From Biomphalaria pfeifferi (taxonomy: Eukaryota), in contig JASAOG010000245.1 of assembly GCA_030265305.1 (NCBI GenBank), positions 169,822 through 233,821 on the forward strand: a DNA stretch of 64,000 nucleotides. The letters run 5' to 3'. This document shows, piece by piece, positions 3,335 through 63,257 of the stretch. Both the position numbers and the translations under genes were made by a program. A model generated the notes under the pieces. The model saw nothing but the letters and a program-made list of their open reading frames with translations, had not been told where the DNA came from and made no database searches. Position 1 is the stretch's first letter, and each line of letters begins with the position of its first letter.

Positions 3335-3860
3335 TTATTTAACCTTGGTTAAGCCAATTATAGAATATGCATCCTCTGTTTGGGACCCTTCAACTTAAGA
3401 AAACTCAAGAAAACATTAAGAAACTGGAACAGACACAAAATAGAGCAGTGAGATTCATTACAAACAAACATTTGACTAGAGTAACACCTATAGTAAAATC
3501 ACTAAATTTAGAAAGCCTTCAGGACAGAAGACTCAAAAGTAATGTAGCAATTATACATAAAACACTGAACCATAATCTTCAAATACAATAACAAAATTTA
3601 TTAAAATACTCTGAAAGACACAAAGACAAAGGCACATTCCTTGTCCCCTATGCTAGGACAAATTTGTACAAATACTCCTTCTTCCCTAGTGCTATTAGAG
3701 CATGGAATGGGTTGCCTGAGCTAGCCAGGAAAACCAGTGACTTGGCAGAATTTAAGTCATTGGTTAATATGCATGACTAAATGCATGACGCGTAGGACGT
3801 AATCATCTTCGTTTTTGAAGTAACGTCTGTATTATATAAGATAAGAATAAGATAAAATAA
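3335..3860 (+). mobile_element. Non-LTR retrotransposon (LINE-A) 3' fragment ending in an (ATAAG)n tail
   Basis: Nearly identical to the 3' end of the reverse-transcriptase-bearing copy at 21355-21860. Encodes the ...RTNLYKYSFFPSAIRAWNGLPELA... C-terminus, followed by an ataag microsatellite. Confidence 0.8.
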
Positions 3861-20159: not shown

Positions 20160-21860
20160 ATATTTTATTTTTTTTACATAACATAATACATAATGATAAT
20201 GAAACTAAAGCAAACATCCTAAACAAATACTTTGCATCAGCATTCTCAGCCCCAGGAGACAAAGACATATTACTGAATTTGAACCAAGTAGACAACATAG
20301 AAGATATAGTAGTACAAGAAAATGGAATTCAAAAACTATTAGCCAACACCAAACCAAATAAAGCGTCTGGACCTGATGGTATTCCAGCTAGATTACTCAA
20401 AGAACTCAGCAATGAGCTAGTCCCAGTGTTCAAAATACTCTTTCAGGCTTCACTTAACCAGGGCAGAGTACCAAAGGACTGGAAAGAAGCTAATGTCACC
20501 CCCCCCCCCTATTTAAAAAAGGAGAAAAATCTGACCCAGGAAACTACAGACCAGCATCACTTACCAGCATCACATGAAAAATCCTAGAACACATAATATG
20601 TAGCAACATCATAAACCCCTTAGACAAACAAAATGTCCTCACACCATACCAACATGGCTTTAGGAAATATAGATCATGTGATCATGTGAAACACAACTAA
20701 GAGGACTAATTGATGATTTTTCTAAAGGTTTAGATAATAGTGAACAAATAGATGCTATCTTACTAGATTTTTCTAAGGCTTTTGACAAAGTTCACCACCA
20801 TAGTTTGCTTTAAAATATGTCGGCATTAATGGTCCACTGCATCAGTGGATTAAAGATTTTCTGATAGGGAGAGAACAAACTGTAATAATAAATGGCTTTA
20901 AATCAACACCGATAACAGTAAACTCAGGTGTACATCAAGGAACAGTCTTAGGTCCACTACTATTTTTAATTTACATAAATGATTTACCAAATTGCATTAC
21001 TCCAGGAACAAAAGTCAGATTATTTGCAGACGATTGCATAATATATAGAACAATAAAAACAACACAAGGCACAGATATTTTACAAAGAGAATTAGATGAA
21101 TTACAGAAATGGGAATCAAATTGGAGCATGTCTTTCCACCCAGAAAAATGTCAATTGTTAAGAGTAACTTATCTTATTCATGGCAAACCAGTAACACAGA
21201 CTAAAAACGCAAAATACCTAGATGTTATAATAAATGAAAAACTGTCATGGAATCCACATATTGATGAAACTATAAAAAAATCAAACAAAGCATTAGGATT
21301 TATTCACAGAAATTTCTATAAATCAAATAAGAACATAAAACTAAAATGTTATTTAACCTTGGTTAGGCCAATAATAGAATATGCATCGTCCTTTTGGGAC
21401 CCCTCACCTCAAGAAAACATTAAGAAACTGGAACAGACACAAAATAGAGCAGTGAGATTCATAACAAATGAATATTCACATTTGACTAGAGTAACACCTA
21501 TAGTAAAATCACTAAATTTAGAAAGCCTTCAGGAAAGAAGACTCAAAAGTAAAGTAGCAATTATACATAAAACACTGAACCATAATCTTCAAATACAAAA
21601 ACAAAATTTAATTAAATACTCTGAAAGACACAAAGAAAAAGGCACATTCCTCGTCCCATATGCTAGGACAAATTTGTACAAATACTCCTTCTTCCCTAGT
21701 GCTATTAGAGCATGGAATGGGTTGCCTGAGCTAGCCAGGAAAACCAGTGATTTGGCAGAATTTAAGTTATTGGTTAATATGCAAGACTAAATGCATGACG
21801 CGTAGGACGTAATCATCTTCTTTTTTGAAGTAACGTCAGTATTATATAAGATAAGATAAG
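20160..21860 (+). mobile_element. LINE-A non-LTR retrotransposon, reverse-transcriptase region plus 3' end, decayed by frameshifts and stops
   Basis: ORF 20075..20587 carries the RT domain-0 motif KASGPDGIPARLLKE and is followed by GNYRPISL. LFADDCIIY, the F/YADD RT motif, lies near 21030. ORF 21128..21790 ends with ...RTNLYKYSFFPSAIRAWNGLPELA. The element terminates in an (ATAAG)n tail at about 21860. Confidence 0.8.
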
Positions 21861-21984: not shown

Positions 21985-22215
21985 TCTTTAGGGCAGATGA
22001 TGTAAAGGTCATCTTTTTATGTGGCCTACGGTTAATGAGGGTGCTATATGGCCAGCACAACAACAAACCGCCTTTACTTTTTTCCCAACTAATGTCAGGT
22101 ACCCATTAAAGTTGTGTGGACTTGAAAGAACCCAAAAATCCCGAAATTAAAAATCCCAGTCTTTAAAAGGATTCGAACCAGGACCCCCACTTTACCACTC
22201 AGCCACTGCGCCTCC
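21985..22215 (-). mobile_element. SINE family A (tRNA-derived head, conserved core, and ...CGCAAGGTCTGAAAGGG tail), minus orientation
   Basis: Reverse complement starts GGAGGCGCAGTGGCTGAGTGGTAAAGTGGGGGTCCTGGTTCGAATCC. The core ...CCAACTAATGTCAGGTACCCATTA... is shared with the copies at 39198, 45738, 62507, 53700, 48192 and 35755. Confidence 0.8.
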
Positions 22216-25677: not shown

Positions 25678-25758
25678 CTAACTCTTTCTCTCCGTAATTA
25701 TTTACCACATTCAGGTGAAATCAACGAGTGTAGCGTCAGTTAGGAGAGAAAGAGTTAA
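25678..25758. mobile_element. About 80-bp MITE with 16-bp perfect TIR TTAACTCTTTCTCTCC / GGAGAGAAAGAGTTAA
   Basis: Direct reading. A second copy in opposite orientation is at 33348-33427, and a partial copy is at about 40990-41022. Confidence 0.75.
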
Positions 25759-25972: not shown

Positions 25973-28661
25973 TACCCAAAAGAGGACAGGAACTTTGTCT
26001 ACAAAAATTGACACCACCCCAAGCAAATGTAATCGTGGAACTGTGAACATGTCTTCTTGCATGCGCGTGTCACACCCCTGACGCTAGATCCGCCACTGAC
26101 GCCGAGGGGCACACTGTTTGACATAAACACGCGAGGACAGCAGACATATTAGCACGTGACTATGTGGGCGATTATGCTGTCGTCCCGATGCTTTGGCTAT
26201 TGATCTTAGGACCTCCGAGGCCTACATGTAATACTTTGTGGATAGCCGACCTGCGTGTCAGACCTGGTTGTTGTTTCTTTAATATGAGTAGTCACGTGAT
26301 GAGTTGCAATCGAGACTAAAAGAGAAACAAAACATTTTTACGTTTTACCTAACATCGGAGCAGTGAGAAACTCGAACGCCAACAAAATAATGTATGAGAA
26401 TCGCTTATTAAGTTAATTGCCATTTAATTAGTTATCATGTTAGATCTCCACTGCAGTTTACATAATAATAATACGGCTTGTCAAATGTGCATCCCGCGGC
26501 CTTTTTGAGTGACCTCCAGCTGTCCCGTTCTGAAGCTGCATGCAACCAGGTGCTCTCTTACATGTCAGTTAAAGCAAGTTGGTCTTTGAGGCGTTTCCGT
26601 GGTGCACCTGTGTTACGTCGACCACCTTTCAGCTCACCAAAAAAAAAAAGACTGCTATTGGCATACGTTCGTCCGCCATACGGGATACGTGCCCTACCCA
26701 GCCTAACTGTCGGATCATAAGAAGTCCCTCAATAATGTCCATACCGGCGTTCGCAAATATACTATGCAGTGTACTTTAATAACTACAATTTATTTACAAA
26801 TACATTTTTTTTGGACAATCAAGAGTGTGCGAACATAACGTAGTTATCTCCCCTTTGACCCGACGCCTGCTAAGAAATTAGTTTCTTTAAAGTCTCCAGT
26901 TCTTATTTAAGTATCTCTCATGTCCACTGACTAATTATATAATTGAAATGGACACGGGAACTCATAGTCCGGCTTTAGCACACTTCCGATTTTGAAATTG
27001 TCAATAATCTAATTAGTCTAACAAATTGATATTTGTCGGCGCCTTAACCTAGTCAGGTAATTAAGGGGACACAATTTCCACATGACATCTTGATCTTTGC
27101 AATGTACAAACTTTCCCATTAAATGGGTCATGTCCCTGACCAATATAGCTTATATAAATGCATAGAAACACTGGGGTAATACATCCGTATCTTATCTTAT
27201 AAATTACAGACGTTACTTTAAAAGAGAAGATACGCGTATCCTTGTCTTAATTATTTTTTTAGAGATTTAAAATCTGCTAAGTCATTGATTTTCCAGGCTG
27301 ATTCAAGCAACCCGTTCCATGTTCCAAAGGCACTTTGAATAAGTAGCTCTTGTGTGAATGTGGCCTAGAATATGGAATAAAAAAATGCCTCTATTTTTTT
27401 GTGTCTTTCTGAGTGTTTCATTAAATTTTTTTTTCTATTTGAAAATTACAGTTTAGTGTTTTATGTATTATGACTACTTGACTTTTTAGTCTTCTCTCCT
27501 GAAGTGTCTCTAAGTTTAGTGATTTTTTTTAGTGATTTTACTAATGGTGTTACTCTAGCGGCTAGTTCAAAGAAAATATTCGTTTGTTTTAAATCCCACT
27601 ACTGTATCTGTTTTAGTTTTTTTTTTCTCCGTAAGTTGTGGGGTACCAAACATATTCTTATATTTGTCTAACCAAAATTAAATAGCTTTTTAGTTTTATC
27701 TTATTGTTGAATTTGTAAAAAAAACAAAAAAACTTTAATGCTTTGTTTATTATTATGGAGGTTTCATGATAACTTCACATTTATTATAATACCGAGCTAA
27801 AGTTTTTTAGTCTTTATAACTGGGTTAAATGATTTATAAACTCCTTCATCCCACTGTCGGTCAGAGTGTTACAAGATCCGCTGTCGTCATCGAGAAGTTC
27901 ATAGCAGTCTAATTCATAAAACGCTGGTTATGAGTGTGTATGCGTTTCTTGTGTGAATGTTGTTCGTATTTGCATCTATATTGTTATTGTTACAGTAGTT
28001 ACGCTTAAGTTGTCAATAGTAGTCAAACTGAATTTCCGTTTGATTGGATCAATAAAAATTATCTTATCTTATCTTAACCTTAGGGTGTTGATTCCCATTT
28101 CTGTAATTCATCTCATCTCTTTCTTTTCTCTTCTGTGAGTGTGATGTCCAGTTTCTATCTCTTTTAACTTGGACTTTTTCTTGCTTTACTAGAAACCATA
28201 GCAACGCTGGCTATGACGAGTAATTGTAAAACATAAACCCAGAAGTCTGGAATAAAAAAAAAAACATAACATAGAATGTATGTCCCAAAGTGTTTTTACG
28301 AACCTTTTTTTACGTACGTTGAACATTTTTTTAAAAATGGTTGGATGTGTTCTTTCATGCTGTCACAGCAACGTCGTTTGGCTGGGGGGGGGGGGGGGTT
28401 AACGGGTCACGGAAGTATTTAATGGATAGGAAAGAATAAAAATTAGAGGCAGGGAAATGATTGGGAAGAGAGATGAATCAATGAAAAACATGGCTAAAAA
28501 TAAATTGGGGGGGGGGGGGGAACTGAGGTGCAGAGCGTGGAAAATGTATATTTAAAAAAAACAACTAATTTTAAAAAAGCTAAAAACCCAGCCACCTTAC
28601 AATGATAATATTAGAGCAGTAATTTTCTTCCTTTATTTACACATTAGTGTGTGCGTGTGAG

Positions 28662-28785
<124 letters not shown>

Positions 28786-29789
28786 AGATAGAGATATATA
28801 TCTTTATTTGTTTCGATTGTAGCAATCCCCTATAAAGCGTCTGTTATTCGAGGCGGATAGTCTAACAATGTGGCTAGCTGAATGTTGATTGCTTCTGTTC
28901 TAGGAACTACCGCATTCAATACAGCAGTCTCTGAGAATCGGAGTGTAGGATCCTCATAAAGCAATGGCCATGCTCAAGGTAGCACCCTAGGGATTTACTA
29001 GGGGACTAGCGTTCATATAAATTCTTATAGGTCTGTTGACTATTATTGATACCAAGCCCTTAACAAATGAGGCCTTACAAAAACTGTAACAGTTTCTGTG
29101 ACTAACTGTCAAGTCTTGCACAATCATTGAGACAAAACATCCGTGAAAATAAAGACGAAACAAACTATCGTCGAGACACCTGTCTTGTCTCTAGTCACGG
29201 TCAGACTGCGGGCGGGCGAAGAAATATTATTTCTAATCTATGATTTAAAATTTTAAATTATGTACACGGGCTCAATAAAACTGAATAGTGCAAATTTTCG
29301 GCTTTAATAAATAAAAGAATTTCTAAACTTTGACCAAAAAAATTAGCTTGTTTAAATAGAAACAAGTAAATTTGAAATCAACTAAATTAATTAATTTAAT
29401 TTACTTTCCCCTCTAAAGTGTCTTAACAAAGTTATTCAATACAAAATAAACAACACCTTAAACATTGAAATTAAAATTCATCTCAGCCTATTCTCAGTGT
29501 CAAATAATTCTCATTTATTTTGGCAAAGCCGATCATAAAGACAGATGCCGTAACCAACATTCCTCCGCCCCCCGAAAGCGCTTTTAAGATCAAAGCAAGT
29601 GCCATCTTACGTTCATTAACACTAACATATACAAAATTTTCTATTAGACTACTATTGTTCACTAAGACTAAGACTGCTATATTGATCCTTAAGGAAATTT
29701 GTTGTGATTACAAGGACTCTTTTCTCATATAAAGACAACACAACAGAAAAATACACATAAATACAACAGACACAAGAGTTCATTCAGCG

Positions 29790-30275: not shown

Positions 30276-30693
30276 ACCACCCTTAAGGTATACAGATCAA
30301 GAGCAATGCTTCTCCGCCTCATCGTGGCGCTCGGGTGGAAACGGTCGTTAGAGTAGACTATTAGACCACAAAAACAGATGAGCTTTACATCATCAGCTCT
30401 ATAGATAGCAAGGTCTGAAAGGGAAACGTCACTTTACTTACGATAATCCATAAGATAAACATCATCAATAGTATTTTCTCCGCCCTTGAAACTTTTTTTT
30501 TTCCATTTTTCTTTTCAGAAGGAAAGGAGAGAAAGAAGAAAGAAAAAAGAGAGCAGGAAAATAGTTATTTAACTTCACAATTAACAAAACTCGAATCTCA
30601 AGGAACGTAGTTCTCTAGCCAAGTGGTAGAGTATAGTAATAGTATACAGACAGTAGTTAGTCTATTGACCCCATATTCTCTAGAAAGACGACC

Positions 30694-33309
30694 ATGGCAA
30701 ACTACAGAGTCAGCCGGTTTGACAACGAGGATGGAAGCAGAAATGTCGACCGCAATGATGGCGCCATTTTTAGAATTCCTCCGCACTACTTTATTCACGT
30801 GCTGGATCAGAACACCAACGTGACGCGGACAGAAGTAGGACCAAAGACATTCATCCGCCAGGATCACCAGCGCGTTACCCGTGGCCCGGAGCAGATGGTG
30901 ATTGTCCCACCGAGGCATTACTGCGCCATCGAGAACCCTGTATGCAGAGACAAGGACGGAAACTTGATTATAGATTCAATCGGGCAGATCAAGCTTCAGC
31001 ATGCTGAGCTGGAGATTCGTCTTGCACAGGATCCCTTTCCCTTACATCCTGGAGAGGTTCTCAAGCTGCCTGTTCAAACATTGCACGTGGTGCCAGCGAA
31101 CTCCGCTCTAAAGATTCGCGCCATCCTTGACTTCACTGATGAAGATGGTCGTCGATGGTCAGCGGGGGATACTTGGTTGTTTGAAGGACCTGGCACTTAT
31201 ATCCCAAAGAAAGAAACGCTTGTTGAAGAGACGATCCAGGCGGTGGTCATTGGACCCAACCAAGCCCTGCGTCTTACAGCCAAGCTGCAATGTCTGGACA
31301 GAGACGGACATTCAAGGGTGTCAGGGGAGGAGTGGATGGTCAAGAAGACCGGTGCATACCTGCCAGGTGTATTCGAAGAAGTGGTGAGCATCGTTAACCC
31401 CTACGTTCTGACTGAATCCATTGGTCTCCACATCAGGGCAATTAAAACATTCAAAGACGACTTTGGAATTGAAAGAAAAAACGGCCAAGAATGGCTGATC
31501 ACTTTCAAAGACTCCGAATCTCATATACCAGGAGTCTACGAAGAGGTACTGGGGGTTATAAATATAACTACGCTGACCAACAGACAGTACTGTGTTATAT
31601 TGAACCCAGTAGGCGACGATGGAAAGCCGCAGTTGGGTCAGAAGAAGCTTGTCAGAGGAGAAAAATCTTTTTTTCTGATGCCAGGCGAAGCCTTGGAGAA
31701 AGGCATACAAAGCGTGTACATCCTTAGCGAAGAAGAAGGACTGGTCCTTAACGCAACGGAACATTTTAAAGACGGTGCTGTGATGAGAAGTCCTGGAGTT
31801 AAATGGATGATCAGAGGTCCAACGGAGTATGTGCCCCCTGTTGAGGTCGAAGTAGTCTTTAAAAGACGTGCGATTCCTTTGGATGAGAATGAAGGAATAT
31901 ATGTCAGGGACGTCAAATCTGGGAAGGTCAGGGCCGTGATTGGCTCCACCTACATGATCAAAGAGGATGAAGAGCTTTGGGAGAAGGATCTCCCTGAGAC
32001 TGTAGAAACCTTAATAACACGAGGTACTGATCCTCTGGCCGACAGGGGAGTGAGGGGGTTAAATGAAGCGAAGACCAAACCGAGAGACAAAACGCGAGTA
32101 GTTACATATCGCGTGCCACACAATGCAGCGGTTCAAATCTATGATTACAAAGCCAAAATGTCCAGGGTGGTCTATGGCCCTGAGCAGGTCATGCTTGGAC
32201 CAGACGAGCAGTTTACTGTCCTGAGTCTCTCTGGGGGCAAACCAAAGAAGAATCACGCCATCAAAGCTCTGTGCCTTCTTTTGGGACCTGACTTTGCTAC
32301 GGATGTTATCACCGTGGAAACAGCTGACCACGCCAGACTCTCAATTCAATTATCCTACAACTGGCATTTCGATGTCGTAGACAAATCACCGGAGGAATCG
32401 GCTAAGCTATTTAACGTTCCAGACTTTGTGGGGGACTCGTGCAAGGCTATAGCCTCTAGGGTACGTGGCGCTGTAGCTCAAGTCTCCTTTGATGATTTTC
32501 ATAAGAATTCAGCGAAGATCATCAGGGCATCAGTGTTTGGGATGGTTGATGGCAAGGTGGTGACAACTATACGTTTCCCACAGAACAATCTTGTCATCAC
32601 CAATGTTGATGTTCAATCTGTCGAGCCTGTGGACCAGCGTACCAGAGACTCGCTTCAAAAGTCTGTACAGCTCGCTATTGAAATTACCACCAATTCACAA
32701 GAAGCAGCTGCTCGACACGAAGCCGACCGCCTTGAGCAGGAAGCTAGAGGACGCCTGGAGCGCCAAAAGATTTTGGACGAAGCCGAAGCCGAGAAAGCCA
32801 GAAGAGAGCTCTTGGAGTTGCAGGCCAATAGCGCTGCGGTGGAGAGCGCTGGCCAAGCCAAAGCCGAGGCGCAGAGCCGCGCAGAAGCGTCGAGGATTGA
32901 AGGAGAGGCTGCTGTGCAACAAGCGAAATTAAAATCACAGGCTTCGGCGATTGAATCCGAATCCGAACTGCAACGCCTTACTCTGGCGAGGAACGCGGAG
33001 CTTGCATACGTTAAAGACAAAAATCGAATGGATCTCGACAAGAATGCGGAGCTCTCAAACATTGAAGTCAATAAATTCCGCAATATGGTGGACTCCATCG
33101 GAAGCAACACTCTGCTGGCCATGGCCACCGCAGGGCCTGATTTGCAGGTAAGAATGCTGCAGGCTCTTGGCCTGAAGTCCACACTTATAACAGACGGCTC
33201 GTCTCCCATCAACCTGTTCAACACAGCTAGCGGGCTTATTGGCGATGTTGTGCCTGCTAAACGGAGGAGACTGGACACCCCAGACAACGAGGAAGATGAA
33301 AATGTTTAA
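30694..33309 (+). CDS. MVP: Major vault protein (MVP), 871 aa, single uninterrupted coding exon
   Basis: Collinear with MVP over its full length: ...[33 protein letters not shown]...VPPRHYC...[18 protein letters not shown]...[14 protein letters not shown]...[34 protein letters not shown]...[28 protein letters not shown]...[19 protein letters not shown]...[25 protein letters not shown]...[23 protein letters not shown]...[72 protein letters not shown]...[21 protein letters not shown]. The start is in a Kozak context, gacgACCATGGca. The stop is TAA at 33307-33309. Confidence 0.93.
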
Positions 33310-33347
33310 CATAAGAATGTTGAATTCCAAAGCAATTCTACAGTAGC

Positions 33348-33427
33348 TTAACTCTGTCTCTCCTAACTGACATACCAACGTTGATTCCACCAGAATGTGG
33401 TAAATAATTACGGAGAGAAAGAGTTAA
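33348..33427. mobile_element. About 80-bp MITE (TTAACTCT...AGAGTTAA family) inserted 39 bp downstream of the MVP stop codon
   Basis: TTAACTCTGTCTCTCCTAACTGAC...GAATGTGGTAAATAATTACGGAGAGAAAGAGTTAA is the reverse orientation of the 25678-25758 copy. Confidence 0.7.
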
Positions 33428-34619
33428 GAGCATCTCGACAAAAACTCTAGAAAAATTCTACAGAATTAATATTTCTCTTGTAAATCCTGGAAGTTTCTCT
33501 TGATAGAGGCGCGCTGAATACAAAATGACGCACACACTTATAGTGCAACTAAAGCATTAGGGTTCTATAAGTTAAATTAAAAATTAATTTATCTATAATA
33601 TAAAGCACAAAGTAAGGCGTATGTCTGTATGTGTGTCCGCATAAAAATCAAAACCGTTAGACCAAATTTTTATAAAAATCTGGCATAAACGTTCCTTAGA
33701 TCACAGAAGAGACCGTAGTGTATGTTTAATGTCACCGCACAACCGGATGGCCCTAAAAATATACAAAAAGTACCTAATTGTATCTCTATTAAAGAGGGAA
33801 ACTTTTTAACAAGTTGGGTAAACACGTTTTCTCGGTATTTAATTTTTGACATGAATATATCGGCTGAATGGATAATTCCATTTTCACACTCTACTTTTAT
33901 TTTCATGGCAAATTTTTAAAAAATCTGAAGGGAACATTCTCTATGTTTGACATAGATCTAAATTCAATCCAATAGATCGGTAATACCCAAACTAAGGCCC
34001 GCAGGCCGTGGGTCATATCCGGCTATTATTTAAGAATATTTTAAACTTGCTTTACTATCGTCACGTTTGCCTTGAGAATGAATGGGAGAGGGGGTGTACA
34101 ATAAAATTATCGGAAAGACAAGGGAAAGATTGGGATGGGGGAGGGGGAAAGGGGTTGCGATTGTCAATGGTTTCATTATTGCACACAGTAAACAAATATA
34201 ATGCTTTTTTTTTTTTAATGCGTTTGCAAGAGTACTAATCATAGTATATCAGTATGGTCATTGCTTACATATCATGTATCAGTAAGTGAAAATGTATTGT
34301 AATTCCTTGCTTAAAATGTATCAGCATGACAGAATGTAACAAAAAGTGCTGCTTACAAAATGTGTATGAATCTGTAGAAATTTCTGGACAATCTTTCATC
34401 ATCTTCATTGACAACATTTTGTCTTTGATTTTTGGTGCCGTCGTTATTGTTTTGTGCCTTATCTGATTTATATTTTTAAAGAAATAAAACTATTACGCTT
34501 TGCTATTTCTGTTCTCTAAAAACGTCTCTACACCACGACATAAGTCTTCGTGTTATACTGAACATTTTATGTGTAGAGTTCATCTTTAAGAATCCTAGTT
34601 ACAAAGCTTCTATCAACTC

Positions 34620-34790: not shown

Positions 34791-35754
34791 GTTTGTTTGG
34801 TTTTTCAAACAAGAGAAAGAAATTGTACTTGACTGAAGTAGTGGTATTAGCTGAGTAAGTCCACGTTATAAGGTCATGGCCTGAGTCTTAGTGAACACAA
34901 ACATGAAATACGACGAGACTCTAGAAACAATACATAACTAAACAATCTTCTATATTCATAAGAACTTCACTAGCAGAGTGGTTAGAACGTCGGCTTGAAG
35001 ACGCCTGAGCCTTGGGCTTGCATTAAGGCTGTCTCCCCCTATATATATATATATAAATGCTTTTTCATTGTTAGTCTAGATCTGTTACGAATTTAATTAC
35101 ACACATTTAATTACACGACTGGGCAAGACGTGGGGACAGTTGGACCGCGACCATTCGTTATAGTGGGCATCAACGCTAGCCTGTGACGTCGCAACCTGTG
35201 GGCAGTGGAGACCAATAGCTCGTTGCCACGTCGTGCAGACCTGTGACGCAGGTGAGAGTTGGGGCCTTCAATGGCGATGCGTTGGAGAGACTAGAGACGC
35301 ATGGAGGAAGTGTTGGTAACGTCTGCCCCAGACAGGACTACAGAGAGAGAGAGAGAGAGGAACTAAATACATTAATAAAGGTAATCATCATTCTATTTTC
35401 TTCGAGATGGAAGATGGACAAAATTTATTATAATACATTTTATCAGCACACTCTGTCTGTCTCGTAAAAATTTCGTACATGTTATCTCTCCCACACCCAT
35501 TCTCGAATCTTATTCTTTGGCATAGACATGAATCAATAAAAAACAAGATTACAAAGACAGTTTGTGTGGAAACACAAATTCAAAATCGGCTCCCGATGTG
35601 GTCCACCCAGGCAGGCTTCAATATTTTCAGAAAGAACATCCAAATGAAATTATATCAAAGACAAATGAGAGATAAGAATGGAGAAAGAAGGTTGACGGAT
35701 CTTGTGTAGTGCCCCAACGGTACAGCAGATCAAAGGATAGGTGCAAGTGCAAGT

Positions 35755-35915
35755 AGCCAGCACAACGACCAACCGCCTTTACTTTTCCCCAACTAATATC
35801 AGGTACCCATTGGAGCTGGTTGGCGCCTAAGGATTCCGAAGTTGAAAATCGCAGTCTTCACTAGGATTCGAACCCGGGGCCCCCGGTTCGGAAGCCAAGC
35901 GCTTTACCGCTCAGC
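35755..35915 (-). mobile_element. SINE family A, minus orientation, tail-truncated
   Basis: ...CACAACGACCAACCGCCTTTACTTTTCCCCAACTAATATCAGGTACCCATTGGAGCTGG...GGATTCGAACCCGGGGCCCCCGGTTCGGAAGCCAAGCGCTTTACCGCTCAGC. Confidence 0.7.
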
Positions 35916-39197: not shown

Positions 39198-39490
39198 GGG
39201 AGACGCGGTCGCTGAGTGGTTAAGCGCTTGGATTCCAAACCTAGGTTCTGGATACGAACCTGGGTTCTGGATTCGAACCTGGGTGAAGACTCGGATTTCG
39301 AATTTCGGAATGTTTAGTGCACTCCTGAGTCCACCCAACTCTAATAGGTACTTGACTTTAGTTGGAGAAAATAAAGGCGGTTGGTCGTTGTGCTGGATAC
39401 ATGACACCCTGCTCGTTAATAGATGGCCAAAGAAATTTTTGGCCTTTAACCCTTTCTGCCCTATTGATCGCAAGGTCTGACAGGGGAACC
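39198..39490 (+). mobile_element. SINE family A, full length, with a duplicated ACGAACCTGGGTTCTGGATT segment in the head
   Basis: GGGAGACGCGGTCGCTGAGTGGTTAAGCGCTTGGATTCCAAACC... followed by the conserved core and the ...GATCGCAAGGTCTGACAGGGGAACC tail. ORFs 39162..39473 and 39196..39480 lie inside the SINE. Confidence 0.85.
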
Positions 39491-40596: not shown

Positions 40597-42599
40597 AACC
40601 GCTTAAATGGACCTCTGTAAAATGATCACACAATGCTACCTAAAATACACTATAAAACGCTACCTTTAAAAAACTTAACTATACTTTAAAAAATGACCAC
40701 ATGAAGCGATTCTCTAAGAAAGACAATATAGCACATCTTTCAAAGATGATGACAAAAAAACTTGTTTTAACTCTTTCTCTCCTAATCGACGATACCATCG
40801 TTGATTTTGACCTCATTAAAATAAATTAATGTTTAATTTTATAAACTTGACTTTGTGTTATATAAAAAGAGCAAGCATTTCCCTTTAATTCTATACCAAA
40901 TACAACATTTTCTTATAACAAACAACAAAGCTATTGAAGCTTAATCATAACAGGGTAGTGAAATAGTAATGAGATAAATGAAGAATTCCTTTGAAACTTG
41001 GAAAAATAATTACGGAGAGAAAGAGTTAAACCATCATAAATTTACTTTATAATGACCAGGTATAATAAATAAATGTCTACGATTTAAACTTGAGCCAAAC
41101 ACAATAATGTGAGTTGTCTTAATAAGTTGTTTCTGTGGGCTGCTAAATACTTATCTCCGGCCTTGAACAAATGTAGATCCTCTTTTTGTTTGTTTGTTTG
41201 TTGAGGAGGCATCTATCAAAACCTTTGAATAAACATACAAACAAAACGTTTAACGATGAACGTGACGTCACGCCGCTCTATCCGCTATTCATCTGTTTCC
41301 GTACATCGATTCATAACTTGCAGACGATCGCCAAGAAAGATCGATACTGATGTCTGTACTTGAGAGAAGTGAAATAGTTTTTTGACATTAACAAATGGGA
41401 TCCTTAAACACGTCACTTCCGCTCCAATTACGTAGGTCAGGGAGAATTCTTTTTTTTTAAAGCTTTTTTCGTCTCTTACAGACCATTAGCCTTCATAAAA
41501 ATAATAACTGCTTTTGAGGTTTGCAAGAATTGTTTCTTTAGTAGCTGTCATCAGGACTAACTAGGCCTACCCAAAAGGACTGACTGCCCAATAATAATAA
41601 AAAAATAATAATAGTAATAATAACTTTATTTATAAGGCGCTTTAACCGAACATAATATAGGCTCACTGCGCTAATGGAACTAATCAGAAATAACAATTAC
41701 ACACAAAAAAATAATTTAAAATGCAATATCTCTGTTGGAGATTTTCATACATGGCGGAAAGCCTAAAAATAGCAAGGTTTTTGGTGTATCCGGTGTGTAT
41801 AACGACGGTAGTGTTGATAACCTGTGTTTTAAAAAGTTATATAGTTATTAAATTTATTATTATGTCGTGTGTGAGGTGCAACATTCGTTTCTAATACAAA
41901 ATTCTCAATTATTTCAAATTGTTCGAACTACTTCCGGGGTGAACATCATTGCTAATACATTCCAATTATCATAAAACAAAGTAACAAAAGGGAAGATGAT
42001 CCTGTTAAATATGATATAAATAAAAACTAGATTTGACTTAATTTTTATTTTGTCTTTCCTTTTCAATCTTTAAATGAAATGAAAGGCTGCCCTGTTGCCA
42101 CACTTTAAGTTACAAGAAATAGGTAAGATTATGTCCCTTGTTTCTATCTTTAGAACATGTTAAAGTCTTATCTCCTTTCAACCCTCTAATAATTCTTCCA
42201 ATATTGAGAGTGGGCGACCTTTTCGTGAGGACAAGACTTTTATTCTGTAGGTAGTGTTGTGTGAGGGAGTGTAAATGTGTGTATGTGCGTGCGTGCGTGG
42301 GGTACTTAGCCTGGCTGAACGGGGTAACTTTGTTTGTCACACTAGGGGAGACTATTTGTATCTCGTTGGAGAAAACAAAAGACATACTATTCTTGGCTCT
42401 AATAGTCTTACTGATAATTCGTAGTAGAAAGATGGTGCGCGCTAGGGATGTGTAGATGAGATGAGACGGTGTTGGTATACAAATTTGGCACTTATGAGAG
42501 ATTCTAGTTTTAACATTAACACTGTATTGGAGGGTTTATGGGGTTTTTTTTCCCTTCTATTTGCTTGCATTCTCATCTTGGGTGGAAAACCATAGATGG

Positions 42600-43189: not shown

Positions 43190-43480
43190 GTGATACTTAT
43201 GGCTGCTGTCTGTGTTTGTGGGCGTTTGTATGTGTCTGTGTGTTTGTATTTGAGTGCGTTTGTACGTTTTATGTGTTTCTATATTTCTGTTTTGTGTTTG
43301 TATGTGTTTGTGTGTGTTTGCTTTTGTTTGTGTGTGTTATTATGTGTCTCTGTGTTCTTATGTGTTTGTGTGTGTGTGTGTTACTGTGTATGCGTGCTTT
43401 TCTGTGTGTCAGTATGTGTCTGTGTGTGTTTGTTTTTTGTTTGTATATGTTATAATATATCTTTGTTTGTGTATGTATTT
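43190..43480. repeat. TG-rich low-complexity tract (TGTGTTTG / TGTGTGTG)
   Basis: ORFs 43117..43455, 43178..43504 and 43254..43493 are Cys/Val/Phe-rich artefacts. Confidence 0.9.
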
Positions 43481-44104: not shown

Positions 44105-45385
44105 TCCACGTGTTAACCACAATGAAATTTCAACCACATGTTAGCAACAATGAAATTTCAACCACATGTTAGAAACAATGAAATTTCAACCACATGTTAG
44201 CAACAATGAAATTACAACAACGTGTTAACCACAATGAAATTTCAACCACAAGTTAGCAACAATGAAATTTCAACCACATGTTAGAAACAAGGAAATTTCA
44301 ACCACATGTTAGCAACAATGAAATTTCAACAACGTGTTAACCACAATGAAATTTCAACCACATGTTAGCAACAATTAAATTTCAACCACATGATAGCAAA
44401 AATGAAATTTCAACCACATGTTAGCAACAATGAAATTTCAACCACATGTTAGCAACAATGAAATTTCAACCACATGATAGCAACAATTAAATTTCAACCA
44501 CATGATAGCAAAAATGAAATTTCAACCACATGTTAGCAACAATGAAATTTCAACCACATGTTAGCAACAATGAAATTTCAACCACATGATAGCAACAATG
44601 AAATTTCAACCACATGATAGCAACAATGAAATTTCAACCACATGTTAGCAACAATGAAATTTCAACCACATGTTAGCAACAATGAAATTTCAACCACATG
44701 TTAGCACCAATGAAATTTCAACAACGTGTTAACCACAATGAAATTTCAACCACATGTTAGCAACAATGAAATTTCAACCACATGATAGCAACAATGAAAT
44801 TTCAACCACATGTTAGCAACAATGAAATTTCAACCACATGTTAGCACCAATGAAATTTCAACAACGTGTTAACCACAATGAAATTTCAACCACATGTTAG
44901 CAACAATGAAATTTCAACCACATGATAGCACCAATGAAATTTCCACAACGTGTTAACCACAATGAAATTTCAACCACATGTTAGCACCAATGAAATTTCA
45001 ACAACGTGTTAACCACAATGAAATTTCAACCACATGTTAGCAACAATGAAATTTCAACCACATGATAGCAACAATGAAATTTCAACCACTTGTTAGCAAC
45101 AATGAAATTTCAACCACATGATAGCAACAATGAAATTTCAACAACGTGTTAACCACAATGAAATTTCAACCACATGTTAGCAACAATGAAATTTCAACCA
45201 CATGTTAGCAACAATGAAATTTCAACCACATGTTAGCACCAATGAAATTTCAACAACGTGTTAACCACAATGAAATTTCAACCACATGTTAGCAACAATG
45301 AAATTTCAACCACATGATAGCAACAATGAAATTTCAACCACATGTTAGCACCAATGAAATTTCAACCACATTTTAGCCACATTGT
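44105..45385. repeat. 29-bp satellite (TTCAACCACATGTTAGCAACAATGAAATT), about 44 contiguous units; degenerate longer-unit relatives at 43730-44100
   Basis: Contiguous head-to-tail units with no unique sequence between them. Minor variants are CAACGTGTTAACCAC and CACATGATAGCA. Confidence 0.95.
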
Positions 45386-45737: not shown

Positions 45738-46012
45738 GGAGACGCTGTGATTGAGTGGTTAAGCGCTTACGTTCCGAACCGGGGATGCCGGGTTTGAATT
45801 CTGGTGAAGACTGGAATTTTTTTTATGTCGGGATTCTTAGGCCGCCTCTTGAGTTCAGCCAGCTTTAAAAGATATCTGGCATTAGCTGGTGAAAAAGTAA
45901 AGACGGTTGGTCGTTACCCTGGCCACATGACACCCTCTTTAACCGTTGGTCACATAAACAGATGACATTTACATCAACTGCCCTATATACCACAAGGTCT
46001 GAAAGGGGCATT
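45738..46012 (+). mobile_element. SINE family A, plus orientation
   Basis: GGAGACGCTGTGATTGAGTGGTTAAGCGCTTACGTTCCGAACCGGGGATGCCGGGTTTGAATTC... then the core and the ...CCACAAGGTCTGAAAGGGGCATT tail. Confidence 0.8.
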
Positions 46013-48135: not shown

Positions 48136-48191
48136 ACTATAATAACCTAGCGGCTGAAATCGATAGAGCCTTGAGATTTATAAATAAAGTT

Positions 48192-48415
48192 CCCCTTTCA
48201 GACCTTGCGATCTATGGAATAGATGATGCAAAGGTCATCTGTTTCTGTGGCCCATTGATAATGAGAGTGCCATCTGGTGGCCAGCACCATGACCAAGCGT
48301 CTTTATTTTCCTGAACGAATGTCAAGTACCCATTAGAGCTGGGTGGACTCCCGAAATAAAAAATCCCCAGAATTTTAGCCCTGAAATAGCTTTACCACTC
48401 AGCCACCGCGCCTCC
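48192..48415 (-). mobile_element. SINE family A, minus orientation, internally deleted head
   Basis: ...CAGACCTTGCGATCTATGG...GTCAAGTACCCATTAGAGCTGGGTGGACTC...CCACTCAGCCACCGCGCCTCC. Confidence 0.7.
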
Positions 48416-48489: not shown

Positions 48490-49000
48490 TGGCTGCCTAT
48501 CGTGCGGTATGCGCGCTGGACTGTCATTCGGTTGTCCGGATGGTCCCGGGTTCAAACCCTTCCCGCTGTCATCCCGCGTCTTCCTACGGGAGGTTCGGAC
48601 TAAGAAGGAACATCTGAAGCATACAAAACATTTCTACAAACAAAACAAAGACTCAAAAGTAAAGTAGCAATAATGCATAAAACAGTGAACCATAACTTAC
48701 AAATACAAACATACTACCTGATAAAATACTCAGACACAAAGATAAAAGCACATTTCTTATCCCATTTGCTTCGACGAATTCATACAAGAGCTTCGTCTTC
48801 CCTAGTACCATTAGAACACGAAAGGGATTGCCAGAATCAGCCTTGAAAACTCAGCAGAGTTGAAGTCTTTTATTAACATGCATATCTAATATAATACATG
48901 GATATGCGTAGGGTGTAATTTTTTTTTCTAAGGCAATTCTGAGGTAATTTATAAGATAAGATAAAATAACATAAGATAAGATGACATAGTGAGAAAAAGA
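48490..49000 (+). mobile_element. SINE family B copy (48490-48645) fused to a diverged LINE-A 3' tail (48650-49000)
   Basis: The SINE reads GGCTGCCTATCGTGCGGTATGCGCGCTGGACTGTCATTCGG... It is followed by GACTCAAAAGTAAAGTAGCAATAATGCATAAAACAGTGAACCATAAC...TTAACATGCATAT... and an ataagataag tail. Confidence 0.65.
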
Positions 49001-53420: not shown

Positions 53421-53699
53421 AGAATTGCGCAAAGTTTCAACTTGATCCGAGAATGGGAAGTGGGAGATATAGCGTGTTTAGAATTTGTACAAAACAGGCG
53501 GAAGTGAGATTTGTAAAATGGTAGTAATAAGATTTATAGTGGTGTGGAGGCTGTTTAGAAAAGAGCATGGCTTCAGAACCGGAAGCTCAAGTCTTTGAAA
53601 AGATAAGAAAAGCAAAAAAATGGGATTATGAATATCGGAATTTTTTTTTTTTTTTTTTTTTTTGGACTCCCAACTCTAACTGGTAAATGAGTGAAGTTC

Positions 53700-53964
53700 C
53701 CCTTGCAGACCTTGTGGCCTATAGAGCACATGATGTAAAGGTCATCTGTTTCTGTGGCCTACGGTTTACGAGGGTGTCAGTTGGCCCACACAACGACCAA
53801 CCGCCTTTACTTTTCCCCAACTAATGTCAGGTACCCATTAGAGCTGGGTGGACTCAGAGGCGCCCAAAGATTTCGAAATTTTAAAATACCAGTCTTCACC
53901 AGGATTCGAGCCTGGAACCCCTGTTTAGACGCCTAGCGCTCTACCGCTCAGCCACCGCGCCTCC
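53700..53964 (-). mobile_element. SINE family A, minus orientation; a partial plus-orientation tail copy abuts it at 53965-54072
   Basis: Reverse complement starts GGAGGCGCGGTGGCTGAGCGGTAGAGCGCTAGGCGTCTAAACAGGGGTTCCAGGCTCGAATCC. ORF 53754..53936 lies inside it. Confidence 0.8.
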
Positions 53965-60744: not shown

Positions 60745-61640
60745 TACATGTGACAAAAGTCAGATTATGTGCAGACGATTGCATAATATATAGAACAATA
60801 AAAACAATACAAGACACAGAAATTTTACAAAGAGAATTAGATGAATTACAGAAATGGGAATCAAATTGGAGCATGTCTTTCCACCCAGAAAAATGTCAGT
60901 TTTTAAGAGTAACAAAAAACTAAAACAAATTAATTCCCCTTATCTTATTCATGGTAAACCAGTAACACAGGCTAAAAACGCAAAATACCTAGGTGTTATA
61001 ATAAATGAAAAACTGTCATGGAATCCACATATTGATGAAACTATAAAAAAAAATCAAACAAAGCATTAGGATTTATTAAAAGAAATTTCTATAAATCAAA
61101 TAAGAACATAAAACTAAAATGTTATTTATCCTTGGTTAGGCCAATATAAAACATGTATTCTCCGTTTGGGACCCCCAAACTCAAGAAAACATTAGAGACT
61201 GGATCAGACACAAAATAGAGCAGTGAGATTCATAACAGACGAATATTCACATTTGACTAGAGTAACACCTTTAGTAAAATCATTAAATTTAGAAAGCCTT
61301 CTGGATAGAAGACTTAAAAGTAAAGTAGCAAATTATAAATTTATAAATAAAACACTGAACCATAATCTTCAAATACAAAATCAAATAAAAATACTCAGAA
61401 AGTTACAAAGATAAAGGCACATTCCTCGTCCCATATACTAGGACAAATTTGTACAAATGCTCCTTCTTCCCTAGCGCTATTGGAGCATGGAATGGGTTGC
61501 CTGAACTAGCCTTAAAAACCAGTGACTTTGCGGAGTTTAGGTCATTTGTTAATATGCATGACTAAATGCATGACGCGTAGGACGTAATCATCTTCTTTTT
61601 TGAAGGTCCGTATTATATAAGATAAGATACGATTAGGTAT
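60745..61640 (+). mobile_element. LINE-A 3' copy, about 0.9 kb, frameshifted
   Basis: Collinear with 21010-21860 (...FADDCIIYRTIKT...MGIKLEHVFPPRKM...) and ends in ATAAGATA simple repeats. ORFs 60854..61069 and 61223..61414 are remnants. Confidence 0.85.
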
Positions 61641-62506: not shown

Positions 62507-62775
62507 GGGGGCGCGGTGGCTGAGTGGTTAAGCGCTCGGTTTCTGAACCTGAGGTCATGGGTTAAAATCTCGGTGAAGGCTGGTATTTGGAATTTCAGGA
62601 TTTTTAGGGCGTCCCTGAGTCCACCCAACTCTAATGGGTACCTGAACTTAGTTGGGGAAAGTAAAGGCGGTTGGTCGTTGTGCTGGCCACATGACACCCG
62701 CTCGTTAACCGTTGGCCACAGAAACATGACCTTAACATCATCTGCCCTATAGATCGCAAGGTCTGAAAGGGTAAC
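62507..62775 (+). mobile_element. SINE family A inside MCM5 intron 1
   Basis: GGGGCGCGGTGGCTGAGTGGTTAAGCGCTCGGTTTCTGAACCTGAGGTCATGGGTTAAAATCTCGG... then the core and the ...GATCGCAAGGTCTGAAAGGGTAAC tail. ORFs 62486..62752 and 62494..62727 lie inside it. Confidence 0.85.
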
Positions 62776-63257
62776 TTTACTTTACTTTTTACAATTAGTC
62801 ACTAGATAAGATTCCAAATACTCAGAATGTTTGATGTGTTCCATTTAATTAGAAAAAAAATTTGGGAATTACTGGACTAGACTACTAGAGATACTAGATC
62901 TGCTTGAGATTTAGTATCATCTAGCTAGATTGCTAGGCTAGATCTATACTCTATACTATCCTATTGTTAATTAGTAGTATTTTTCCTATGTCCTCTATGA
63001 TTATGAATACCCAGAATAGCCTCCATGTCTATCAGTATAGTCTATACTATTCTATATATACTATAGTGAAGTGATTATATCTTGGGCATAGGCAGGGCCT
63101 AGGCCTAGGATTTTTTGTGTTGGGGATTTTTTTTCTTCCTGTATTATTACAATTTTTTAAATATAACAAAAATTTGAATGAGAAAAGTCTGTAGAAATCA
63201 AATGTGACACAGTGAATAGTAACTTCAACCATTTTTGCATTTTTTTTGTAATTTAAG

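What the first reader, a model, noticed from the sequence alone, without database searches (positions are those of the whole stretch)
30694..33309. The major vault protein (MVP) gene has a single 2.6-kb coding exon inside a transposon graveyard
The 871-aa ORF is collinear with MVP from the N-terminal repeat domains through the shoulder to the C-terminal coiled-coil cap helix. There is no interruption, although vertebrate MVP genes have about 14 coding introns. The ORF has markedly higher GC and GC3 than its AT-rich flanks. It sits between LINE tail fragments, with a MITE inserted in its 3'UTR 39 bp after the stop codon. Either this lineage carries an intron-poor MVP, or this is a retroposed and possibly additional MVP copy. 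If it is a retrocopy it is old, because no poly-A tract or target-site duplication remains. The conserved N-terminus is preceded by a 22-aa extension, [22 protein letters not shown], whose validity as real N-terminus is untested.
Basis: partly seen in the sequence, partly recalled or inferred. Interest (0 to 1): 0.6.

Follow-up and report, generated by a model that had tools for sequence, protein, structure and literature searches.

The report
Ancient intronless second vault-protein gene
This is a complete, selectively maintained extra copy of the major vault protein gene in the snail Biomphalaria pfeifferi; it arose from a reverse-transcribed mRNA at least about 200 million years ago and is still kept, with no introns in its coding region, in sea hares, pond snails and probably slugs alongside the ordinary 15-exon gene.

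Summary
Window 30694-33309 (+) is an uninterrupted 871-aa ORF that matches major vault protein (MVP) end to end. The window is Biomphalaria pfeifferi. It is not the lineage's only MVP. B. pfeifferi and B. glabrata also have an 851-aa MVP, whose B. glabrata gene has about 15 coding exons over 12.3 kb on another chromosome. Orthologues of the window gene are also single uninterrupted ORFs in B. glabrata (syntenic), Physella, Lymnaea, Aplysia and a marine-metagenome contig. Together with an Arion protein they form a 100%-bootstrap clade, sister to the multi-exon heterobranch MVPs. Outgroup-polarised quartets show 19-31 derived residues shared among single-exon genes, against 0-3 shared with the same species' multi-exon gene. 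That indicates one retroposition before the sea-hare/pulmonate split (about 230 ± 50 Myr). dN/dS is 0.04-0.11, so the gene is constrained. It evolves 2-4 times faster than the parent and has higher GC3. Its N-terminal extension is real and clade-wide. The MITE call is confirmed. The upstream "LINE tail" is a tRNA-derived SINE tail. This is an ordinary kind of event (an old functional retrogene) in an interesting family, and I found no description of it in the searchable literature.

The parts
30694..33309 (+). Complete single-exon CDS (871 aa plus stop) of the retrogene-derived MVP paralogue ('MVP-R'; NCBI KAK0042287.1, 'major vault 1', B. pfeifferi)
   Evidence: ORF. Pfam Vault/Vault_2/3/4 plus MVP_shoulder. 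1198 bits to human MVP over the full length. 100% identity to P0001. dN/dS 0.107 against B. glabrata.
30694..30759 (+). Codons for the 22-aa N-terminal extension [22 protein letters not shown], a charged low-complexity segment specific to the clade
   Evidence: Alignment of N-termini. Pre-core length is 22-63 aa in all 7 clade members and 9-13 aa in parental-type and outgroup MVPs. One substitution (D19E) against B. glabrata. 'VSRFD' is shared with the Logan protein P0009.
30658..30660 (+). In-frame TAG 36 nt upstream of the ATG; it closes the reading frame upstream within this exon
   Evidence: The ATG context is gACCATGG in B. pfeifferi and CCCATGG in B. glabrata.
30492..30518 (+). Polypyrimidine tract plus CAG: a putative 3' splice acceptor of a 5'-UTR intron, so the exon would begin at 30519. 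Inferred, not shown.
   Evidence: A strict acceptor-like motif is found at -175 (B. pfeifferi), -171 (B. glabrata), -114 (Lymnaea) and -83 (Aplysia) from the ATG. The background is 0.21 such sites per 400 nt. A weaker one lies directly before the ATG in P0090.
30519..30693 (+). Putative 5'-UTR segment of the coding exon
   Evidence: Inferred from the acceptor-like site. Identity to B. glabrata is 78-88% here and falls away upstream of about 30440.
30362..30439 (+).
   Evidence: Five other copies of this segment in the window. The family alignment shows a tRNA-like head with A and B boxes.
33145..33153 (+). CAG|GTAAGA: a near-consensus 5' splice-donor sequence lying exactly on the fossil of the last parental exon junction (residues Q818|V819)
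   Evidence: An older B. glabrata gene model (P0124, 834 aa) departs from the 871-aa protein at exactly this residue.
33348..33427 (.). MITE-like element: a 72-bp body (33352-33423) with 12-bp terminal inverted repeats CTCTGTCTCTCC/GGAGAGAAAGAG, flanked by TTAA on both sides, 39 bp after the stop codon
   Evidence: It is present at the same site in B. glabrata.
33310..34380 (+). Conserved 3' flank, probably the 3' UTR; candidate poly(A) signals ATTAAA at 33576 and 33788 and AATAAA at 34100
   Evidence: 95.4% identity to B. glabrata over 1071 bp, against 83-91% for most other collinear flank blocks outside the tandem arrays (one downstream block reaches 94%) and synonymous dS of 0.075. Signals.
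34307..34380 (+). Single unit of a 79-bp minisatellite that is expanded to 13.5 copies in B. glabrata M-line. It encodes the alternative C-terminal tail of the older B. glabrata model P0124.
   Evidence: In B. pfeifferi the frame would give only HDRM*.

Best explanation
The ORF is a functional, very old retrogene: a second MVP paralogue, here called MVP-R.

**Origin.** A fully spliced mRNA of the ancestral multi-exon MVP gene was reverse-transcribed and inserted at a new chromosomal site. This happened in an ancestor of Tectipleura (sea hares and pteropods plus pulmonate snails and slugs), after the split from caenogastropods. Both genes have been kept ever since.

**The protein (shown).**
- It retains every MVP module: repeat domains, shoulder, cap-helix and cap-ring.
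- It is under strong purifying selection.
- It evolves 2-4 times faster than the parent.
- Its synonymous sites have become more GC-rich.
- It carries a clade-specific charged N-terminal extension.

**Function (inferred).**
- It assembles into vault shells, either alone or mixed with the parental MVP.
- By analogy with solved vaults, where the MVP N-termini meet at the waist on the luminal side (established knowledge of rat vault structures), the extension would sit inside the particle at the waist.
- Having lost the parental promoter, the gene is driven by a recruited upstream promoter and probably a non-coding first exon. That would give it an expression pattern different from the parent, which is the most likely reason both copies are retained.
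For: **Shown**
1. All 14 parental coding introns are absent. The junctions fall in gap-free alignment, while the same-genus parent has about 15 coding exons.
2. Parent and copy lie on different chromosome-scale scaffolds in B. glabrata (CM074213.1 and CM074204.1) and on different contigs in B. pfeifferi.
3. Single-exon orthologues exist in B. glabrata, Physella, Lymnaea, Aplysia and a marine-metagenome contig.
4. The B. glabrata locus is collinear with window 23.5-45.9 kb.
5. NJ trees give the single-exon clade 100% bootstrap. It is sister to the parental heterobranch clade (93-98%), inside Heterobranchia (97-100%).
6. Outgroup-polarised quartets give 19-31 shared derived residues among single-exon genes, against 0-3 between the single-exon and multi-exon genes of one species. 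Aplysia gives 19-21 against 1-5.
7. Signature residues occur at sites nearly invariant elsewhere (I54V, D105E, I351V, N423K, L441I). A profile search shows a score gap for the clade.
8. dN/dS is 0.107 (Biomphalaria pair) and about 0.04 (Physella/Lymnaea).
9. Tajima relative-rate tests show the copy 2.0-4.4 times faster than the parent, p <= 1e-4.
10. GC3 is 0.52-0.55 against 0.38 (Biomphalaria) and 0.72 against 0.46 (Lymnaea).
11. Tectipleura radiated about 230 ± 50 Mya (PMC7931591).

**Inferred**
- An acceptor-like motif lies upstream of the ATG in 4 of 6 loci.
- The most conserved parts between copy and parent are the cap-ring (92%), R9 (81%) and the shoulder and cap-helix (79%), the modules that build the shell.
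- MVP paralogues co-assemble in trypanosomes and probably in Dictyostelium (PMC12547018).
Against: - No poly-A remnant or target-site duplication was seen in the sequence I read, as expected at this age. I made no systematic search. The RNA intermediate is inferred only from the clean loss of all introns.
- No transcript or peptide evidence for the Biomphalaria gene could be obtained here. The Logan contigs end in repeats and cannot be called transcripts. Three B. glabrata papers do not mention MVP.
- Deeper synteny (Biomphalaria against Physella, Lymnaea and Aplysia) gave no signal in 3-5-kb flanks.
- The trees are distance-based only, because no ML program was available.
- The iM-line B. glabrata assembly carries a frameshifted copy. 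If that is real, the gene is dispensable in culture.
- The Arion and P0009 members have no genomic sequence, so their intronless state is unverified.
- The exon structure of MVP in caenogastropod or bivalve outgroups was not checked here.
Confidence: 0.87

Rival explanations
1. This is simply the lineage's normal MVP gene. Snails (or this clade) have an intron-poor MVP and there is no second, intron-containing gene.
For: The ORF is full-length and intact. Orthologous loci in related species are also intronless.
Against: B. pfeifferi has an 851-aa MVP on another contig. The B. glabrata and Lymnaea versions have about 15 coding exons. Physella, Lymnaea, Biomphalaria and Arion each have both forms.
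Confidence: 0.01
2. It is a young or lineage-specific retrocopy, or a processed pseudogene that happens still to be open. Each snail lineage made its own retrocopy independently.
For: It is intronless and sits in a TE-rich region. The copies have long branches that could attract each other in distance trees.
Against: - Polarised quartets: 19-31 shared derived states among the copies against 0-3 with the same-species parent.
- Shared signature residues at otherwise invariant sites, and a shared N-terminal extension.
- The topology inside the clade follows the species tree: Aplysia outside, then slugs against freshwater snails.
- dN/dS is 0.04-0.11.
- Identity to the same-species parent is only 76%.
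Confidence: 0.02
3. A DNA-level (segmental) duplication of MVP in the tectipleuran ancestor was followed by complete loss of all 14 coding introns in one copy, for example by recombination with its own cDNA.
For: No poly-A tail or target-site duplication was seen that would prove an RNA-mediated insertion. A probable 5'-UTR intron exists, which could be an inherited intron rather than an acquired one.
Against: All 14 introns are gone in every lineage examined and none are gone in the parent. That requires either 14 losses before the first split or one cDNA-mediated conversion, and the latter is itself a reverse-transcription event. The copy is on a different chromosome.
Confidence: 0.08
4. Assembly contamination or horizontal acquisition: the intronless MVP comes from another organism.
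For: Its GC content is higher than that of the surrounding DNA.
Against: - The locus is collinear between two Biomphalaria species, with host repeats on both sides.
- The gene nests inside Heterobranchia and follows the host phylogeny.
- A host MITE sits in its 3' flank in both species.
Confidence: 0.005

Closest known systems
Canonical metazoan major vault protein (human/rat MVP; solved vault shells such as PDB 4V60, 4HL8, 7PKZ)
   Same: Same domain order and length: repeat domains, shoulder, cap-helix and cap-ring. One uninterrupted 1198-bit alignment covers residues 24-851.
   Different: The coding region is intronless, against about 14 coding introns. There is a 22-aa charged N-terminal extension. 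It lacks the ~20-aa loop that human MVP has after the shoulder. It is a second paralogue rather than the sole MVP gene.
Parental-type heterobranch MVP (B. pfeifferi KAK0054160.1 / B. glabrata P0004, 851 aa, about 15 coding exons)
   Same: Same genome and same architecture. 76% identical overall, and 92% in the cap-ring.
   Different: The parent is multi-exon over 12.3 kb, on a different chromosome, evolves 2-4 times more slowly, has GC3 of 0.38 against 0.52-0.55, and has a short 10-aa pre-core N-terminus.
MVP paralogue systems in other eukaryotes: Dictyostelium MvpA/B, three kinetoplastid MVPs, three salmon-louse MVPs
   Same: More than one full-length MVP is retained long-term. In Trypanosoma brucei all three are reported in one shell, and in Dictyostelium loss of either alters vault shape (PMC12547018). 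The salmon louse has three expressed paralogues (PMC11219742).
   Different: Those are independent duplications in other phyla, and in what I read none was described as a retrogene (the louse genes have three exons each). The snail pair is much less diverged (76% identity) than the kinetoplastid paralogues (52-58% similarity). Whether the snail pair co-assembles is unknown.
Long-lived functional retrogenes of animals (general class: intronless CDS, new chromosomal site, recruited promoter or 5'-UTR exon, raised GC)
   Same: All parental introns are lost and the parent is retained elsewhere. The ORF is intact with low dN/dS and an accelerated rate. GC3 is raised and a 5'-UTR intron is likely.
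   Different: Unusually old (at least about 230 Myr) and unusually large (2.6-kb CDS) for a retained retrogene. It encodes the subunit of a 78-mer cage, so dosage and co-assembly constraints apply. Expression bias, for example to the germline, is untested.

Membership tests
Major vault protein (MVP) family | Multiple N-terminal vault repeat domains (Pfam Vault, Vault_2, Vault_3, Vault_4) | tested here: met
   All four repeat families are well above their gathering scores. Vault scores 201.6 bits in 4 stretches.
Major vault protein (MVP) family | Shoulder domain (PF11978) following the repeats | tested here: met
   Residues 531-647 match profile positions 1-118 of 118, E = 6.8e-51.
Major vault protein (MVP) family | Long C-terminal cap-helix and cap-ring, collinear with solved MVP chains | tested here: met
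   The single alignment to human MVP runs through residue 851. A 140-aa cap fragment (9z5n_B) matches residues 752-850.
Major vault protein (MVP) family | Predicted 3-D fold equals the MVP monomer | tested here: inconclusive
   AlphaFold2 on a 7-sequence alignment gave mean pLDDT 39 and pTM 0.22, which is unusable. The model was not used.
Major vault protein (MVP) family | Assembles into the 78-subunit vault shell and associates with TEP1, PARP4 and vault RNA | not testable with these tools
   This needs particle purification, cryo-EM or proteomics. No vault RNA or other Rfam family is present in the window.
Functional retrogene (retroposed gene copy) | Lacks all introns that interrupt the parental coding sequence, with seamless junctions | tested here: met
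   All 14 parental junctions map to gap-free stretches of one ORF.
Functional retrogene (retroposed gene copy) | An intron-containing parental gene is retained at another genomic location | tested here: met
   B. glabrata: the parent is on CM074213.1 with about 15 exons and the copy is on CM074204.1. B. pfeifferi: the two proteins are on different contigs. The exon structure of the B. pfeifferi parent itself could not be fetched.
Functional retrogene (retroposed gene copy) | 3' poly-A remnant and flanking target-site duplications | not tested
   No systematic search was made for an A-tract or flanking direct repeats. None is apparent in the 3' sequence read. After at least about 230 Myr they are expected to be erased, so their absence would be uninformative.
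Functional retrogene (retroposed gene copy) | Intact ORF under purifying selection in several species | tested here: met
   dN/dS is 0.107 and about 0.04. Intact ORFs are found in six genomic sources.
Functional retrogene (retroposed gene copy) | Transcribed and translated | not testable with these tools
   No RNA-seq mapping was possible. To my knowledge the Arion member comes from a transcriptome-derived UniProt entry (not verified here). The Logan contigs are ambiguous.
MITE (for the 3'-flank element) | Short non-coding element with terminal inverted repeats, a target-site duplication and multiple dispersed copies | tested here: met
   The body is 72 bp with 12-bp TIRs and TTAA on both sides. 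There are two full copies plus one partial copy in 64 kb, with 0 expected by chance. The genome-wide copy number was not tested.
   The upstream fragment belongs to a tRNA-derived SINE family. The large flank ORFs have no Pfam domains. No repeat library was available, so a LINE-derived SINE tail is not excluded.

The most novel reading that the evidence does not exclude
Tectipleuran gastropods have had a two-gene vault system for more than 200 Myr. MVP-R would build a distinct vault population, or alter mixed vaults, whose lumen at the waist is lined by up to 78 copies of a charged, disordered N-terminal arm (an RS-repeat arm in Aplysia). That could change cargo or RNA binding, or the association of the two half-vaults. 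The apparent frameshift allele in the inbred, schistosome-susceptible iM-line of B. glabrata would then be a ready-made natural knockout for testing what a vault paralogue does in an animal.
Probability: 0.2. Interest if true: 0.55.

Novelty: new member of a known kind. Interest (0 to 1): 0.35.

Why it matters
**For vault biology.** Vaults are abundant, conserved particles whose function is still unclear. A recent paper still states that most eukaryotes have a single MVP (PMC11219742). A second MVP kept under selection for at least about 230 Myr in a large animal clade adds an animal case of long-term MVP paralogy. That clade includes the schistosomiasis vector Biomphalaria and the neurobiology models Aplysia and Lymnaea. 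The copy has its own N-terminal arm and probably its own regulation. The case can be approached experimentally through paralogue-specific knock-down, proteomics of purified vaults, and possibly a natural frameshift allele.

**For genome annotation.** Single-exon MVP models in heterobranch genomes are genuine genes. They are neither processed pseudogenes nor contamination.

**As an evolutionary event.** It is a textbook functional retrogene and not a new mechanism.

Tried and rejected
- **Structure prediction:** AlphaFold2 on the 7-sequence clade alignment gave mean pLDDT 39. I discarded the model and ran no fold search.
- **Deep synteny:** tblastx of the 3-5-kb flanks of the Physella, Lymnaea and Aplysia loci against the window and against each other found no hits. 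This is uninformative, because the flanks are short and TE-rich.
- **Six-frame Pfam scan of the flanks:** I replaced it with ORF listing and Pfam on the four largest ORFs, which gave no hits.
- **Contig look-ups:** the B. pfeifferi proteins P0126 and P0001 and the Physella protein P0013 are not on record. The exon structure of the B. pfeifferi parent and the local B. pfeifferi gene calls could therefore not be retrieved.
- **RNA searches:** ARAGORN found no tRNA genes and Rfam found no families.
- **Expression evidence:** the two Logan contigs for P0009 are identical but end in repeats, so they cannot be classed as transcripts. Three B. glabrata genome and transcriptome papers do not mention vault or MVP.
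- **Literature:** I found no paper describing a molluscan MVP retrogene.
- **Strict clade-defining residues:** only 2 positions passed the strict test. A relaxed test and polarised quartets were more informative.
- **Alternative C-terminal isoform:** I considered that the cryptic donor at 33148 marks a real conserved isoform. I rejected it as a conserved feature. In B. pfeifferi the downstream 'exon' gives only HDRM*. It also lies in a minisatellite unit, and the donor's synonymous positions are not conserved across species.
Full report

Yes. Window 30694-33309 (+) is one ATG-initiated ORF of 871 codons.
- Pfam finds all MVP-specific families: Vault (1.2e-60, four stretches), Vault_2, Vault_3, Vault_4 and the MVP shoulder (6.8e-51).
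- A phmmer search of PDB sequences aligns residues 24-851 in a single stretch to human MVP residues 6-851 at 1198 bits. Rat MVP chains score about the same.
- GC is 0.45-0.53 across the ORF and 0.30-0.42 around it. CDS GC is 0.497 and GC3 is 0.521.

**2. Whose genome, and is this the only MVP?**

The protein is 100% identical to KAK0042287.1, 'major vault 1', of Biomphalaria pfeifferi.

The same search showed that Biomphalaria, Physella, Lymnaea and Arion each have two MVPs, a longer one (870-887 aa) and one of about 850 aa.
- B. pfeifferi's 851-aa protein (KAK0054160.1) lies on a different contig.
- The near-identical B. glabrata gene spans 12.3 kb. tblastn resolves it into about 15 coding exons.
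- The Lymnaea 850-aa gene looks the same, spanning 10.4 kb.

In contrast, the 870-aa genes of Physella and Lymnaea, the 871-aa gene of B. glabrata and the 899-aa gene of Aplysia californica are each a single uninterrupted ORF. So is an 876-aa gene on a marine-metagenome contig that groups with Aplysia. In B. glabrata the two genes sit on different chromosome-scale scaffolds, CM074213.1 and CM074204.1.

**3. One old event or several young ones?**

- **Trees.** Neighbour-joining trees with bootstrap put all single-exon genes into one clade with 100% support. The clade also includes Arion-887, a Logan 912-aa protein and the metagenome protein. It is sister to a clade of all multi-exon-type heterobranch MVPs (93-98%). 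Both clades lie inside Heterobranchia (97-100%), to the exclusion of caenogastropods.
- **Guarding against long-branch attraction.** The single-exon genes evolve faster, so I counted outgroup-polarised derived states. Single-exon genes of two species share 19-31 derived residues. A single-exon gene shares only 0-3 with the multi-exon gene of its own species. Aplysia shares 19-21 with the other single-exon genes and 1-5 with multi-exon genes.
- **Signature residues.** Several of these lie at sites that are invariant or nearly invariant in the 39 other MVPs compared: I54V, D105E, I351V, N423K and L441I.
- **Profile search.** A profile of the clade separates its members from all other database MVPs by a score gap, 1729-1838 against <=1691 bits.
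- **Species tree.** The topology within the clade follows the species tree.

The duplication therefore predates the split of Euopisthobranchia and Panpulmonata. One paper dates the radiation of that group (Tectipleura) to about 230 ± 50 Mya from published molecular clocks (PMC7931591).

**4. Why retroposition?**

All 14 parental exon junctions map to gap-free stretches of the alignment between the window protein and its same-species parent. All introns are absent in every lineage sampled, while the parent keeps them. The copy is also on another chromosome.

One reverse-transcription event explains this. A DNA duplication would need 14 precise losses before the first split, or a cDNA-mediated conversion. 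I leave that rival at about 8%.

I made no systematic search for a poly-A remnant or a target-site duplication, and none is apparent in the flanking sequence I read. Neither is expected to survive at this age.

**5. Is it functional?**

- dN/dS is 0.107 between B. pfeifferi and B. glabrata (dS 0.075; 59 differences in 2613 nt). It is about 0.04 between Physella and Lymnaea, where dS is saturated.
- Tajima relative-rate tests show the copy accumulating 2.0-4.4 times more unique substitutions than the parent, p <= 1e-4.
- Divergence from the parent is spread along the protein. It is lowest in the cap-ring (92% identity), R9 (81%) and the shoulder and cap-helix (79%), and highest in R8 (67%).
- GC3 is much higher than in the parent of the same genome: 0.52-0.55 against 0.38 in Biomphalaria, and 0.72 against 0.46 in Lymnaea. 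Raised GC is a known trait of intron-poor genes. That is established knowledge and was not tested here.

**6. The start codon and the 22-aa extension**

- There is an in-frame TAG 36 nt upstream of the ATG.
- The ATG context is ACCATGG.
- The next Met is residue 68, inside the conserved core.
- Twenty-one of the 22 residues are identical in B. glabrata.
- Every clade member has a 22-63-aa pre-core segment rich in R, K, D, E and S. Other MVPs have 9-13 aa.
- A weak common motif is present, and 'VSRFD' is shared by Biomphalaria and P0009.
- Aplysia's version is an RS repeat with net charge +9. The freshwater-snail versions are about neutral.

The extension is therefore real and ancestral to the paralogue. 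In solved vaults the MVP N-termini lie at the particle waist facing the lumen (established knowledge). The extension would be placed there, which is an inference.

**7. Gene anatomy beyond the CDS (inferred)**

A strong polypyrimidine tract plus CAG lies 175, 171, 114 and 83 nt upstream of the ATG in B. pfeifferi, B. glabrata, Lymnaea and Aplysia respectively. The background is about 0.2 such sites per 400 nt. This suggests a 5'-UTR intron and a non-coding first exon, as is common in retrogenes that recruited a promoter. The support is only suggestive.

Downstream, 1071 bp are 95.4% identical between the two Biomphalaria species. That is at least as conserved as synonymous sites, and candidate poly(A) signals lie at 33576, 33788 and 34100.

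**8. The surroundings**

- The B. glabrata locus is collinear with window 23.5-45.9 kb.
A second copy lies at 25679-25758, and the element is present at the same site in B. glabrata.
- The repeat fragment 255 bp upstream of the ATG is the 3' tail of a ~300-bp tRNA-derived SINE, with at least 7 copies in the window.
- No LINE protein remnants were found nearby.

**9. Comparison with what is known**

The literature I could search describes MVP paralogues in three groups:
- Dictyostelium;
- kinetoplastids, where three paralogues are reported in one shell (PMC12547018);
- the salmon louse (PMC11219742), whose authors state that most eukaryotes have a single MVP.

An in-silico Aplysia immunome paper lists four MVP loci without comment (PMC9334734). 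I found nothing on an intronless molluscan MVP. The genes themselves are already in public annotation.

**10. Verdict**

This is a well-supported but conventional kind of finding: an ancient functional retrogene. It gives a new, undescribed member of the MVP family with some experimental appeal.

Noticed in passing
L009 3001-5648 (B. glabrata iM-line, CM074204.1); corresponds to window about 32385-32400: The iM-line orthologue has a 32-bp insertion after CDS nt 1697: two extra tandem copies of the 16-mer GGAGGAATCGGCTAAG, which encodes PEESAK in the shoulder domain. It shifts the frame, and the gene is annotated as two proteins (575 and 255 aa). The other B. glabrata assembly (L008; probably iBS90, not verified), the older model P0124 and B. 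pfeifferi are intact. This is either a natural null allele in an inbred lab line or an assembly artefact.
   Followed up: partly
window 33145-33153 and 34307-34380: CAG|GTAAGA lies exactly at the fossil of the last parental exon junction and forms a near-consensus splice donor. An older 834-aa B. glabrata model (P0124) splices from there into a unit of a 79-bp minisatellite about 1 kb downstream. In B. pfeifferi the same splice would add only HDRM*, so it is probably annotation noise or a non-conserved minor isoform.
   Followed up: partly
L009 6641-7728 against window 34307-34380: A 79-bp minisatellite directly after the conserved 3' block has 13.5 copies in B. glabrata iM-line and a single unit in B. 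pfeifferi.
   Followed up: partly
window 44106-45381: A large tandem array: 28-bp unit CCACATGTTAGCAACAATGAAATTTCAA, 45.6 copies, 90% matches. It is also present at the collinear position in B. glabrata.
   Followed up: no
window 62519-62787, 45752-46007, 53690-53952, 21985-22188, 48182-48350, 35750-35915, 39255-39403, 30362-30439: A ~300-bp tRNA-derived SINE family (head GGAGGCGC.GTGGCTGAGTGGTAAAGCGC...GGGTTCGAATCC with A and B boxes) has at least 7 copies in 64 kb. ARAGORN does not call any of them as a tRNA.
   Followed up: partly
window 26481-27679, 61132-61631, 21359-21858, 48648-48963, 3377-3846: A second dispersed repeat family of about 500 bp with 70-72% identity between copies. It was not classified.
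   Followed up: no
window 40726-41675: A 950-bp block that is 94.4% identical to B. glabrata, clearly above the 83-91% of most neighbouring flank blocks. It holds no ORF of 95 aa or more. It could be a conserved non-coding element or an exon of an unannotated gene.
   Followed up: no
L005 3001-3140 (Aplysia californica MVP-R N-terminus): The Aplysia orthologue's N-terminal extension contains an RSRSRSRSRSRS run (net charge +9), reminiscent of the RS domains of splicing factors. The other species have roughly neutral mixed-charge extensions.
   Followed up: no
L002 and L003 5001-7613: The Physella and Lymnaea single-exon MVP genes have GC3 of about 0.70-0.72 in genomes whose local flanks are 36-40% GC. 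This is a much stronger synonymous GC enrichment than in Biomphalaria (0.52-0.55).
   Followed up: partly
L010 1031-3661 (marine-metagenome contig, project PRJEB4352): An intact intronless MVP-R orthologue, sister to Aplysia, sits on a 3.9-kb ocean-metagenome contig. It presumably comes from a planktonic heterobranch such as a pteropod. This shows that animal nuclear genes of this clade can be recovered from plankton metagenomes.
   Followed up: partly
window 28662-28786 and 43207-43478: Simple repeats: an (AGAT)n microsatellite of about 32 copies, and a TG-rich degenerate array.
   Followed up: no
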